The position numbers and the translations under genes are program-made. A stretch of DNA of 20,056 nt from Candidatus Jordarchaeia archaeon (GTDB lineage: Archaea > Asgardarchaeota > Jordiarchaeia > Jordiarchaeales > Jordiarchaeaceae), in NCBI GenBank assembly GCA_029856435.1, contig JAHQXB010000049.1, positions 1 through 20,056 on the forward strand, written 5' to 3'. The notes below the pieces were generated by a model. It was not told where the DNA came from, made no database searches, and saw nothing but the letters and a program-made list of their open reading frames with translations. How positions within the stretch are numbered: the stretch's first letter is position 1; every line of letters starts with the position of its first letter. Positions 1 to 13,822 of the stretch are shown in pieces.

Positions 1-49
1 AGAAAACCCATTAAATCTACTATTTAAAAGCAGCCATACACATGTGTCG

Positions 50-250
50 TGTAGCCGATTCCGGCCAAAGCCCGGAATGCGGGAAGTTTGAAAAGGTCAA
101 AAGGGGGGCAGGGCCGCAATTGGATGCATCCTCCCACCGAAGGCAGGAGAGAGGCGCCTGCTTCAACCGTTCCCCGGGCGAAAGCCCCCATGAAACCGGG
201 GGAGGAAGACTCAAAGCTATGCAAGGTTAGCGCTGGGTCAGAACGGTTCC
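50..250 (+). ncRNA. Candidate structured RNA; possible orphan TnpB omega-RNA or IS200/605- or IS607-type right-end remnant
   Basis: GC-rich island in AT-rich context with several stems: ATTCCGG 58-64/CCGGAAT 72-78; TTTGA 87-91/TCAAA 97-101; GGGC-GAAA-GCCC 176-187 (GNRA loop); CCCGG 173-177/CCGGG 196-200; long-range AACCGTTC 165-172/GAACGGTT 241-248. TATA-like TATTTAAA at 21-28. The family assignment is inferred from remembered resemblance to archaeal tnpB 3' ends. Confidence 0.4.
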
Positions 251-318
251 TATAAACTAAATGTTTATAAGATTTGCCTATTTGATTAAAAGTAGGCAGT
301 GTTTTTGGAGGAGAAATT

Positions 319-483
319 GTGGATAAAGAATGCAAAGTTTGCGCTCCCAAGGTTGGAAAAAAGGGAGAAATCGAAAATTATAACCTAGACGAGCTTAAAA
401 AATTAGCCCAAGTTGAACCCGAGCTTGACTCTGAAGAACTGGAAAACCTAGCCAAAAAGGAAAAAGTTAGGTGGAAAAAATAG
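319..483 (+). CDS. Small hypothetical protein (54 aa, N-terminal CxxC)
   Basis: GGAGGAG RBS at 307-313, GTG start at 319, TAG at 481-483. Translation: MDKECKVCAPKVGKKGEIENYNLDELKKLAQVEPELDSEELENLAKKEKVRWKK. Below the ORF-track length cutoff. Confidence 0.6.
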   Translation: MDKECKVCAPKVGKKGEIENYNLDELKKLAQVEPELDSEELENLAKKEKVRWKK

Positions 484-12157: not shown

Positions 12158-13822
12158 TCAAGTATACGCATACATTCCAATTTCCTCTATTTTGATTAAT
12201 GGGGGGTCGATTTTGGATTTTAAAGATATTTCTATTATGGGGGCGGTTTTAAATGTGCTTGGTTTAGTGTTTCTGTTTTGGAGAGAGCAGCTCTTGTACC
12301 TCCGTCTAAAATGATACGGCCTTTGTTCATAACGATTACTCTGCGGCAATATTCAGCGACAATTCTCATATCATGCGTTATCAGTATAATGGTCTTACCG
12401 TTAGAATTAAAATTTAGAATAGATCCAAGAGTTTTTTATCTCTGCATTTCTTCAAATCCATGTTTTCAAGAATTTCTTTAACCATCTTCGATTTATTATC
12501 TTTAACACCATATTCGATTTCAGATTCAACGTTGTCACAGAAAATCTGGTAGTCTGGATTCTGAAATAAGGACCCGATTTTTTCGTTTAGTCTTTTTATT
12601 TTTCCTAGGTTAACACCGCCAATTCTTATTGTTCCTTTCTTCGGTTTTAGCAGACCAGCTAGAATCATAGCTAATGTGGTTTTCCCTGAACCGTTTGATC
12701 CTATCAAGGCAACGAATTCACGCTCATTTATGGTAGGGTTGGCGTGTTTTAATACTATTTCACCGTGGTACCCAAAAGATAGGTCTTCAATCTTGATGAT
12801 CGGCTTATCCTGCTTCGCCAAAACGGGATTCTCACCATTCTGCTTAATTTTTGTTTTTTTGATGGATAATCTTTAAAACAAGTTACTGCATCATCAATGG
12901 TTAATGGTACCTCCCTGGTTTCTATCCTACTTTCCAATTTTAGGAAAATCTACACAGTTTGGGCATTCTTAACCCGACATTTTCTATTGTCGGATTCAGA
13001 AAGATGGATCTCGGATTACCTTTCGCTATTATTTTTCCGTTTTCCAATACAATCATTCAACTCGCGTATCTAACAATTTAAGTCGTGCTCTGCTATGACT
13101 AAGGTTATACCCCTTTCGTTTAGTTTGTTAAGAATACTCAGTACCATGTCTCTTCCCTCGGCGTCGAGGTCTGCTGTTGGTTCATCAAGCACCAGAATTT
13201 CTGGTTTGACCGATGTTGCTGAAGCAATGAGCACTCTCTGCTTCTCTCCACCGGACAGTTCAAACAGATAACGGGTTTGCAAATCTCTGATATCCACCGC
13301 GTCTAAAGCAAAATCCACACATCTTACTATCTCATTCTTGGTATATAACAAAAATTTTCAGCAATAAAAGCCAGCTCGTCCTCAGTGATGCAGATTTATT
13401 CGGCTCCATCTCCCTATTAAGGCTCCAAATCGTGAAAGAAGCCCTATAAACACCCCCCTTTTTGAGGCGAAACCGAACAATTCTACATCGCCACTCGTCC
13501 TCAACGGTAACATTGAAAAGCTGAGCCTCTGGGTTCTGGAACACCATTCCCACTTTGGTAGCCAACACGTTTATATCGTTCTCCCTCGTGTCCAGTTCAC
13601 AAATACTTACCGGGTCCTTCATTTCCCCACTAAGGCGTGAGGAATTATGCCGTTGAGAGAGTACAGAAGTGTTGATTTTCCTTGCCAGATTGACCTGCAA
13701 CAACCAGAAACTTCCTCCCTCCTAACGTCAAGATTTATGTTCTTCAACACATACTCTTCCGAGATTGGATACTTATAACACAAGCCCCTTATCCTAGCGA
13801 TCACGTTCTCCTTCACGGCCAT
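12158..13822 (-). pseudogene. Fragmented ECF/ABC transporter double-ATPase (EcfA/CbiO-like)
   Basis: Ordered fragments in different frames: YKYPISEEYVLKNINLDV, GKSTL, VGMVFQNPEAQLFNVTVEDE, LSGGEKQRV...LVLDEPTADLD, second domain GSNGSGKTTL...LFQNPDYQIF, then ITHDMRIVAEYCRRVIVMNKG. There are several frameshifts and stops, one insertion, and the second signature/Walker B segment is missing near 12420-12440. Confidence 0.85.
13383..13493. mobile_element. MITE-like insertion (family B, ~111 bp) inside the ecfA pseudogene
   Basis: Direct repeat CTCGTCCTCA at 13375-13384 and 13494-13503. Removing the insert plus one repeat restores TVEDE-LAFIAEN. Imperfect TIRs GTGATGCAGATTTATTCGG vs GCGATGTAGAATTGTTCGG (15/19). 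The TSD can be read as 8-10 bp. Confidence 0.75.

What the first reader, a model, noticed from the sequence alone, without database searches (positions are those of the whole stretch)
21..270. Promoter-preceded ~200-nt structured RNA resembling an orphan TnpB omega-RNA
Seen: a TATA-like TATTTAAA (21-28), then about 200 nt with at least five stems, including a GAAA-capped hairpin and an 8-bp closing helix (165-172 with 241-248). GC falls sharply after ...TCAGAACGGTTCC. Known: TnpB omega-RNAs overlap the tnpB 3' end and the element right end, and the flanking DNA becomes the guide. Inference: CCGTTCCCC...GAAAGCCCCCATGAAA...GGGAGG...CAGAACGG resembles, from memory, archaeal tnpB 3' ends. No tnpB ORF is present; only a faint S-P-E-C-G (one change from CPECG) survives in ORF 42-230. 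A nuclease-free scaffold with its own promoter could be a trans-acting guide RNA, with predicted guide TTCCTATAAACTAAATGTTT from about 247. It could also be an unrelated new ncRNA.
Basis: partly seen in the sequence, partly recalled or inferred. Interest (0 to 1): 0.7.

Follow-up and report, generated by a model that had tools for sequence, protein, structure and literature searches.

The report
Protein-less IS607 mini-transposon with guide-RNA scaffold
The GC-rich stretch is the right-hand end of a roughly 300-base, gene-less copy of an IS607-type jumping element, present about 45-50 times in this Asgard archaeon; it still carries the folded guide-RNA scaffold of the TnpB nuclease it has lost, and the copies look like decaying relics, not working RNA genes.

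Summary
The described sequence features are all there. However, window 1-246 is not a free-standing RNA gene. It is the 3' part of a ~290-329-nt dispersed repeat, and the contig starts inside it. This Jordarchaeia/'Freyarchaeota' genome holds about 45-50 copies. The repeat is a non-autonomous IS607-family element: a left end, a decayed tnpB 3' end, and a ~100-nt TnpB omega-RNA scaffold (149-246) that stops exactly at ...CAGAACGG.

- **Mobility.** Sister genomes have the empty site, ...TGGGGG|TTCCTATAAAC..., so 246|247 is the true boundary. The insertion is at a GG and makes no duplication. A TGGGG motif sits where the TAM (the motif TnpB needs beside its target) would be.
- **Link to tnpB.** A covariance model of the scaffold hits 16 of 151 Asgard genomes. 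Many hits lie at the 3' end of intact tnpB genes next to serine-recombinase tnpA.
- **Fold.** Across these lineages the fold covaries strongly. It has stems P1, P2 and P3 plus a pseudoknot, CCGUUC with the terminal GAACGG.
- **State of the copies.** The 27 intact copies in this genome show no covariation, and the scaffold is no better conserved than the rest. No cognate tnpB was found. The predicted guides have no excess targets. The TATTTAAA box is specific to one subfamily.

The 'own promoter, trans-acting guide' idea is unsupported. This is a new member of a known kind. Other first-stage notes flagged sibling copies elsewhere in this genome.

The parts
1..246 (+). 3' 246 nt of one copy of the non-autonomous IS607-family element. 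The contig begins inside the element. The missing left end and left flank lie at G000:C8:4793-5159.
   Evidence: BLAST and nhmmer find ~47 matches in the genome, most aligning from window position 1 to ~246. C8:4950-5159 equals window 1-210 at 98% identity, and C8:4793-4909 is the orthologous left flank.
21..28 (+). TATTTAAA, a TATA-like box. It is specific to this subfamily and is not a conserved family feature.
   Evidence: Present in the window, C8 and C91 copies. The 27-copy alignment mostly reads CATCATTCCTCAAAAA here.
42..148 (+). Decayed remnant of the tnpB 3' coding region. SPECG at 69-83 is the relic of the first CxxC of the zinc ribbon. It is shorter than the homologous stretch of the sister-genome copies and lacks the second CxxC and the RuvC-III DRD motif.
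   Evidence: Alignment with G003 copies that still read CPECG...CPKCG...EEDRDVIAVRNLL. The window ORFs have no Pfam hit.
149..246 (+). Core TnpB omega-RNA scaffold (~98 nt), ending at the transposon right end.
   Evidence: Full-length match to covariance models R1 (105.2 bits) and R2 (74.7 bits). The same model hits tnpB 3' ends in other Asgard genomes.
156..179 (+). Stem P1: GCCUG (156-160) pairs with CGGGC (175-179). Its loop holds the 5' strand of the pseudoknot.
   Evidence: Constrained folds. P1 covaries across genomes: GGCG/CGCC, GGGG/CCCC, GCGG/CCGC, GCCG/CGGC.
167..172 (+). Pseudoknot 5' strand CCGUUC, which pairs with 241-246.
   Evidence: 99.3% of cells are paired in 24 sequences. 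Two pairs changed on both sides: C:G to U:A and C:G to G:C.
185..205 (+). Hairpin P2: the C-run 185-189 pairs with the G-run 198-202 (alternative register up to 205), with loop AUGAAACC. It follows the conserved GAAAG linker at 180-184.
   Evidence: P2 covaries: CCUCCC/GGGAGG, CCCGUC/GACGGG, CCACC/GGUGG, CUCUCC/GGAGAG.
208..239 (+). Stem P3: GACUCA (208-213) pairs with UGGGUC (234-239). The inner stem is 216-219 with 228-231.
   Evidence: 94.6% of cells are paired and 6 of 7 pairs changed on both sides across genomes.
241..246 (+). Pseudoknot 3' strand GAACGG. It is the last bases of the scaffold and the transposon right end. The terminal GG is the core dinucleotide.
   Evidence: Empty sites in sister genomes place the junction at 246|247.
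247..266 (+). Flanking DNA that would be the guide if the RNA were made and loaded: TTCCTATAAACTAAATGTTT.
   Evidence: Sister genomes read ...TGGGGG|TTCCTATA(A/G)(A/G)CTAAAT... with no element. It has no other match in this genome at up to 1 mismatch in its first 16 nt.

Best explanation
Window 1-246 is the right-end portion of a gene-less, non-autonomous IS607-family element of ~290-329 nt. The element consists of a ~130-nt AT-rich left end, a decayed tnpB 3' remnant, and an intact-looking ~100-nt TnpB omega-RNA scaffold. That scaffold has stems P1, P2 and P3 and a pseudoknot joining the P1 loop to the last six bases, and it ends at the transposon boundary.

Shown here:
- It is a discrete insertion at a GG, with no terminal inverted repeats and no target duplication.
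- About 45-50 copies exist in this genome.
- Autonomous relatives carry a serine-recombinase tnpA and a tnpB whose 3' end and right end are homologous to this scaffold.

Inferred:
- Copies were spread by a TnpA serine recombinase supplied in trans, through a circular intermediate.
- The scaffold once let a TnpB cut the emptied site (TGGGG plus the 3' flank) and so restore the element.
- In this genome the copies are now mostly inert relics. No cognate tnpB was found and the copies drift neutrally.
For: Repeat family and boundaries:
- Sharp boundaries: (W)GGGG|TGTTAAAAC... on the left and ...GGGTCAGAACGG| on the right.
- Pairwise identity among copies is 84-88% inside the element and ~30% in the flanks.

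Empty sites in sister genomes:
- Found for the C44 and C5 copies.
- Found for the window copy itself in G001, G003 and G004...GGTGTTTGGGGG|TTCCTATAAAC....

Parentage:
- G003:C152 carries a homologous left end, then tnpA (HTH_17 + Resolvase), then tnpB.
- G003 mini-copies keep CPECG/CPKCG/DRD coding sequence upstream of the same 3' module.
- G009:C64 has tnpA plus a 434-aa tnpB (OrfB_IS605 + Cas12f1-like_TNB), with the scaffold at its 3' end.

Scaffold model and fold:
- Model R1 hits 16 of 151 Asgard genomes. Hits lie at tnpB 3' ends and all end in AGAACGG or ACAACGG.
- On a MAFFT alignment of 24 sequences, 90.9% of cells are paired against 41-53% in slid controls. 16 of 23 pairs changed on both sides, against 8.2 +/- 1.7 in shuffles (0 of 500 shuffles reach it).

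Agreement with published work:
- An IS607-family element was shown to need a GG core dinucleotide at both ends, to use a TGGG target/TAM, and to have a scaffold ending ...UCGG (bioRxiv 10.1101/2023.11.20.567912).
- The ISDra2 omega-RNA forms a pseudoknot with the bases just 5' of the guide (PMC10097598).

Relic status:
- The 27 copies in this genome show no covariation: 88.0% paired against 88.4% in shuffles.
- The scaffold is not better conserved than the left end: 83.7% against 87.9%.
- No close tnpB was found.
Against: - The genome is a 181-contig assembly that breaks at repeats. A cognate tnpA/tnpB could be unassembled: another IS607 lineage is seen only as five identical right ends at contig starts.
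- Most copies still form about 88% of the scaffold pairs, so a residual function cannot be excluded.
- In both G000 and G003 the independently shortened mini-elements kept the whole scaffold. This could mean the RNA mattered while the element was spreading.
- No transcript data are available.
- Which TnpA moves the element was not shown. The left ends beside the two tnpA genes present (C177, C53) are not recognisably similar to this element's left end.
Confidence: 0.82

Rival explanations
1. A live trans-acting guide-RNA locus. The mini-element is transcribed from its left-end promoter or a local TATA-like box. The scaffold plus 3' flank is loaded onto a TnpB encoded elsewhere. That TnpB then cuts emptied sites so the gene-less copies are kept, or the RNA serves a domesticated targeting or regulatory role.
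For: - The window copy forms all of P1, P2, P3 and the pseudoknot.
- Mini-elements in two genomes kept the full scaffold despite different internal deletions.
- TnpB works with an omega-RNA supplied in trans in the published IS607-family system.
- This genome holds other IS607 lineages with the same RNA architecture. One has five 100%-identical ends, which suggests recent activity.
- The empty allele in the sister genomes shows TGGGGG next to the predicted guide target.
Against: - No cognate tnpB was found. The best relatives are 23-46% identical over partial stretches, and the C177 copy is broken.
- There is no covariation and no extra conservation of the scaffold among the 27 copies.
- 19 of 56 guides have a second near-match in the genome, against 12-21 of 55-56 for control 16-mers.
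- The TATA-like box is not conserved.
- The resident active lineage has a different pseudoknot (CCGUUG/CAACGG) and different stems.
Confidence: 0.12
2. An unrelated new structured non-coding RNA gene family with its own promoter, which only by chance looks like a tnpB 3' end.
For: - There is no Rfam match.
- It is a GC-rich island in AT-rich DNA.
Against: - It is directly homologous to tnpB 3' ends and right ends next to tnpA/tnpB in other genomes.
- It behaves as an insertion with empty sites.
- The left end is homologous to the left end of an autonomous IS607 element.
Confidence: 0.02
3. The tail of a protein-coding gene lying to the left of the window, or a different kind of mobile element such as a classical terminal-inverted-repeat MITE, a group II intron fragment or a retroelement.
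For: - Open frames 42-230 and 88-255 exist.
- The contig starts inside the feature.
Against: - The left neighbour (the end of C8) shows the element's left end and then unrelated flank, not a gene running in.
- The ORFs have no Pfam hit.
- There are no terminal inverted repeats and no duplication beyond the GG.
- There is no Rfam group II intron hit.
Confidence: 0.02

Closest known systems
IS607-family transposons with TnpA serine recombinase, TnpB and omega-RNA (for example the Clostridium botulinum IStron studied in bioRxiv 10.1101/2023.11.20.567912)
   Same: - GG core dinucleotide at both junctions.
- A TGGG-like motif abutting the left end.
- The scaffold is the last part of the right end and ends in ...CGG, with the guide coming from the 3' flank.
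- No inverted repeats and no target duplication.
- An engineered mini-element lacking both genes is moved by TnpA in trans.
   Different: - This is a natural element with no genes at all, in an Asgard archaeon, amplified to ~45-50 copies.
- It has no group I intron.
- The scaffold sequence is unrelated to the described families (no Rfam hit, RAGATH-18 included).
- No activity was tested here.
SMN1 of Sulfolobus islandicus: a 320-bp non-autonomous element mobilised by the ISC1733 transposase (PMC3718332; that ISC1733 is an IS607-type element is from my memory)
   Same: - An archaeal, ORF-less element of ~320 bp that depends on a transposase in trans.
- The size is nearly identical.
   Different: - There is no sequence relation.
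- To my knowledge SMN1 has not been described as carrying an omega-RNA scaffold.
- The copy number here is higher and the copies are older (pairwise identity mostly 75-88%).
PATEs (palindrome-associated transposable elements), the gene-less derivatives of IS200/IS605 elements (a PATE with IStron ends is mentioned in the same bioRxiv paper)
   Same: Only the transposon ends are kept and no ORF remains. In TnpB-bearing elements the right end holds the omega-RNA scaffold, so a copy reduced to its ends can keep it.
   Different: - Those elements use a Y1 (HUH) TnpA, single-stranded DNA hairpin ends and TTAC/TTGAT-type targets.
- This one belongs to the serine-recombinase (IS607) branch, with a GG core.
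ISDra2 TnpB omega-RNA (cryo-EM structure, PMC10097598)
   Same: - A scaffold of ~100-116 nt with several stems.
- A pseudoknot formed by the bases immediately 5' of the guide and a 5'-proximal segment.
- The guide lies 3' of the scaffold.
   Different: - There is no sequence similarity.
- The stem count differs: three stems plus a pseudoknot inferred here, against four stems plus a pseudoknot.
- The fold here is inferred from covariation only.

Membership tests
IS607-family transposable element | GG core dinucleotide at both the left junction and the right end | tested here: met
   Left flanks mostly end ...GGGG and right ends mostly read ...ACGG. Empty against occupied sites show insertion at a GG with nothing else duplicated.
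IS607-family transposable element | No terminal inverted repeats and no target-site duplication | tested here: met
   The 27-copy alignment with flanks and the empty-site comparisons.
IS607-family transposable element | Autonomous members encode a serine-recombinase TnpA (MerR-like HTH + resolvase domain), usually with tnpB downstream | tested here: met
   G003:C152 has a homologous left end followed by a 205-aa HTH_17 + Resolvase ORF and then tnpB. G009:C64 has tnpA plus a 434-aa TnpB with the homologous right end. The window's element itself has neither gene.
IS607-family transposable element | Mobilised by TnpA through excision to a circle and re-integration | not testable with these tools
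   Only indirect evidence: multiple insertions with clean empty sites.
TnpB omega-RNA (guide-RNA scaffold) | Scaffold overlaps the tnpB 3' end and stops at the transposon right end, so that the flank supplies the guide | tested here: met
   Model hits at the 3' ends of tnpB ORFs in G006, G008, G009, G010, G014, G016, G036 and G041, all ending ...AGAACGG or ...ACAACGG. The window match is 149-246.
TnpB omega-RNA (guide-RNA scaffold) | Conserved secondary structure with a pseudoknot involving the bases next to the guide | tested here: met
   90.9% of cells paired, 16 of 23 pairs with changes on both sides, and the pseudoknot 99.3% paired with two covarying pairs.
TnpB omega-RNA (guide-RNA scaffold) | A cognate TnpB nuclease is available in cis or in the same genome | tested here: not met
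   There is no tnpB in the element. No close homologue of the G003 or G009 TnpB was found in G000. The assembly is fragmented, so absence is not proven.
TnpB omega-RNA (guide-RNA scaffold) | Transcribed, and guides DNA cleavage next to a TAM | not testable with these tools
   No transcript or biochemical data. A TGGGG motif next to the guide-matching site in the empty alleles is consistent with this.
Classical MITE | Terminal inverted repeats flanked by a short target duplication | tested here: not met
   Neither is present. It is a miniature non-autonomous element but not an inverted-repeat one.
Rfam families, including RAGATH-18 (the described guide-RNA motif of some IS607 TnpBs) | Match to the curated covariance model | tested here: not met
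   There are no hits at gathering score in the whole window. Only chance-level hits (E 1.6-8.7) appear in 1-600.

The most novel reading that the evidence does not exclude
The ~45-50 gene-less copies form a dispersed library of guide RNAs that hitch-hike on both enzymes of a full-length element. TnpA moves them, and a TnpB supplied in trans uses each copy's scaffold plus flank to re-cut its emptied site. The mini-elements would then be preserved by RNA-guided homing without encoding anything, or some copies have been taken over by the host for RNA-guided targeting.
Probability: 0.12. Interest if true: 0.7.

Novelty: new member of a known kind. Interest (0 to 1): 0.4.

Why it matters
- **Annotation.** It explains a conspicuous GC-rich 'structured RNA' island, and its ~45-50 siblings that break this assembly, as transposon debris. 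This prevents mis-annotation as new RNA genes.
- **A new RNA model.** It yields a covariation-supported model of the omega-RNA of Asgard IS607 TnpBs, which Rfam does not match. The model gives exact right-end and guide boundaries and a candidate TGGGG TAM. These could be used to annotate tnpB elements in Asgard genomes and to choose compact archaeal nucleases for testing.
- **An open biological question.** Independently shortened mini-elements in two species both kept the whole scaffold. That raises a testable question: do gene-less IS607 derivatives profit from TnpB homing in trans?

Tried and rejected
- **Rfam.** Gathering and permissive scans gave nothing meaningful.
- **Single-sequence folding.** The z-scores were not significant.
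- **First consensus fold.** RNAalifold on the copies from this genome gave a weak, mostly uninformative fold. My first hand model used a GAAA-capped hairpin. I replaced it once divergent tnpB-linked homologues showed that GGGC pairs upstream as stem P1.
- **Direct link to tnpB in this genome.** BLAST and nhmmer found none for this family.
- **Exact-pattern scan of species genomes.** It found only sister genomes, with short copies next to host genes and no intact parent.
- **Guide targets.** Second matches are no more frequent than for control 16-mers taken 40-160 nt downstream.
- **Contig C21 as the left neighbour.** C21's end is 100% identical to window 1-123, but this is a different copy. 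The orthologous left flank is on C8.
- **Other element types.** A classical MITE and a group II intron or retroelement were considered and rejected: no inverted repeats, no duplication, no intron signatures.

Full report
**What is in the window.**
- TATTTAAA lies at 21-28.
- A GC-rich block (0.59-0.66) runs over roughly 50-250 and drops to 0.32-0.39 afterwards.
- AACCGTTC (165-172) is complementary to GAACGGTT (241-248).
- GGGC-GAAA-GCCC lies at 176-187.
- ORF 42-230 reads SPECG at 69-83.

By itself the fold is unremarkable: z = -1.0 on the plus strand and -0.6 on the minus strand. Rfam has no match.

**It is a dispersed repeat cut by the contig start.**
- Window 1-320 finds 47 matches in the organism's own 3.54-Mb, 181-contig genome. 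Most align from window position 1 to ~246.
- Queries taken from internal copies show that homology extends ~60-70 nt further left. The full unit is ~329 nt.
- An alignment of 27 uninterrupted copies with flanks gives sharp ends: (W)GGGG|TGTTAAAACTGCTTCTA... and ...GGGTCAGAACGG|.
- Mean pairwise identity is 84-88% inside the element and ~30% in the flanks.
- There are no terminal inverted repeats and no target duplication.
- About a dozen further copies are interrupted at one site by a second small element. Others are cut by contig ends.
- Titles of sister-genome records name the group as Asgard, Jordarchaeia/'Freyarchaeota'.

**It is an IS607-family derivative.**
- A congeneric genome (G003) has ~330-750-nt elements that share the last ~107 nt with this element and end at the same base.
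- Upstream of that shared module, the G003 copies still carry recognisable tnpB codons (CPECG...CPKCG...EEDRDVIAVRNLL). One copy retains a left end like ours, followed by the N-terminal helix-turn-helix of a transposase.
- G003:C152 holds the apparently autonomous form: the same left end, a 205-aa ORF with HTH_17 and Resolvase domains, then tnpB running into the contig end.
- G009:C64 has tnpA plus a 434-aa TnpB (OrfB_IS605 + Cas12f1-like_TNB). Its 3' end matches our scaffold.
Window 42-148 is decayed tnpB coding sequence, shorter than the homologous G003 stretch.

**Insertion behaviour.**
- Sister genomes carry empty sites for the C44 and C5 copies.
- They also carry one for the window copy itself. 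G001, G003 and G004 read ...GGTGT(T/A)TGGGGG|TTCCTATA(A/G)(A/G)CTAAAT... with no element.
- The orthologous left flank in this genome is at the end of contig C8...GGTGTTTTGGGG|TGTTAAAACC.... It is not on C21, whose end is merely a near-identical copy.
- The element therefore sits at a GG, its right end is ...ACGG, and nothing else is duplicated. 246|247 is the exact boundary.
- This matches published experiments on an IS607-family element: a strict GG core at both ends, a TGGG target/TAM, and a scaffold ending ...UCGG (bioRxiv 10.1101/2023.11.20.567912).

**The RNA.**
- A covariance model of the last ~100 nt (R1) gives full-length hits in 16 of 151 sampled Asgard genomes, in six taxonomic families.
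- In G006, G008, G009, G010, G014, G016, G036 and G041 the hits lie at the 3' ends of tnpB ORFs. The G009 TnpB is 34-58% identical to these. All hits end in AGAACGG or ACAACGG.
- These divergent sequences revealed the real fold:
  - P1: GCCUG/CGGGC here, and GGCG/CGCC, GGGG/CCCC, GCGG/CCGC or GCCG/CGGC elsewhere.
  - A pseudoknot: the CCGUUC in the P1 loop pairs with the terminal GAACGG.
  - A conserved GAAAG linker.
  - P2: CCUCCC/GGGAGG, CCCGUC/GACGGG or CCACC/GGUGG.
  - A long P3 whose sequence differs almost completely between lineages.
- The test used a MAFFT alignment that was not fitted to the structure. 90.9% of cells pair, against 41-53% when the partners are slid. 16 of 23 pairs changed on both sides, against 8.2 +/- 1.7 in shuffles (0 of 500 reach it). 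The pseudoknot is 99.3% paired, with C:G to U:A and C:G to G:C exchanges.
- A pseudoknot made by the bases just 5' of the guide is the hallmark of the solved ISDra2 omega-RNA (PMC10097598).
The 'GAAA-capped hairpin' is probably not the native fold.

**Is it working here?**
- Among the 27 copies in this genome the same structure shows no covariation: 88.0% paired against 88.4% in shuffles, and one double change against 2.4 expected.
- The scaffold is no better conserved than the left end: 83.7% against 87.9%.
- No close relative of the parental TnpB exists in the assembly. The nearest tnpA (C177, 53% identical) sits beside a broken tnpB.
- The 16-nt flanks that would act as guides have second near-matches in 19 of 56 cases. 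Control 16-mers taken 40-160 nt downstream have them in 12-21 of 55-56 cases.
- TATTTAAA is confined to this copy's subfamily.
- The most economical reading is neutral decay of transposon relics.

Three caveats apply.
- The assembly collapses repeats. A second IS607 lineage with the same RNA architecture is visible only as five identical right ends at contig starts.
- Most copies still keep ~88% of the scaffold pairs.
- Independently shortened mini-elements in two species both kept the whole scaffold.

**Comparison with what is known, and verdict.**
- Gene-less derivatives are known for IS200/IS605 elements (PATEs).
- An archaeal 320-bp non-autonomous element moved by the ISC1733 transposase is known in Sulfolobus (SMN1, PMC3718332).
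- Engineered IS607 mini-elements are moved by TnpA in trans, and TnpB accepts an omega-RNA supplied in trans.
- This is therefore a new member of a known kind: a natural, highly amplified, gene-less IS607 derivative in an Asgard archaeon that carries an omega-RNA scaffold of a family not yet in Rfam.
- Other first-stage notes in this scan flagged sibling copies elsewhere in the genome with the same reading. I verified two of them as members of the family.

Noticed in passing
G000:C138:37763-38275; also C22:19025-19543, C126:230-734, C84:26160-26656, C136:6443-6950, C45:1023-1534, C132 (two copies): A second, ~170-nt element with perfect terminal inverted repeats (CGATAGATTCGC...GCGAATCTATCG) is inserted at exactly the same CCCGGG site inside the scaffold of at least 8 copies. 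It occurs in both orientations, flanked by a CCGGG-like duplication. Either it targets this palindrome strongly, or the composite elements kept transposing.
   Followed up: partly
window 13385-13492 (and more than 100 places genome-wide): A ~108-nt repeat family at 92-100% identity has well over 100 copies in the genome, one of them inside this window. Further families of ~140, ~155 and ~170-180 nt were seen in the flanks of the C60 copy. The genome is unusually rich in short dispersed repeats.
   Followed up: no
G000 contig starts C26:1-121, C30:1-122, C33:1-122, C161:1-120, and the end of C174 (21858-21979): Five 100%-identical tnpB 3' ends and right ends (...AAWNIA... then a scaffold with pseudoknot CCGUUG/CAACGG) are each followed by different flanks. 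This suggests a second, recently active IS607 lineage whose body is not assembled. Diverged copies lie at C41:5265-5388, C177:11288-11407 and C99:9349-9469.
   Followed up: partly
L100 (G009:C64) 795-2096; L101 (G008:C24), oriented 720-1970: In intact relatives the tnpB reading frame stays open through the whole scaffold and past the transposon boundary. The stop codon is therefore supplied by flanking DNA, and the protein tail differs from insertion to insertion.
   Followed up: no
G000:C105:3049-3510 and G001:C221:3732-3920 (L058): A divergent copy (71% identity to the main family) has the same 3' flank in this genome and in a sister genome. It is therefore an older, orthologous insertion that predates the species split. 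The window copy, by contrast, is absent from three sister genomes.
   Followed up: partly
window 319-483: A small ORF (54 aa, with CKVC near the N-terminus and a lysine/glutamate-rich tail) lies just downstream of the insertion. The surrounding DNA is 84-87% identical in three sister genomes.
   Followed up: no
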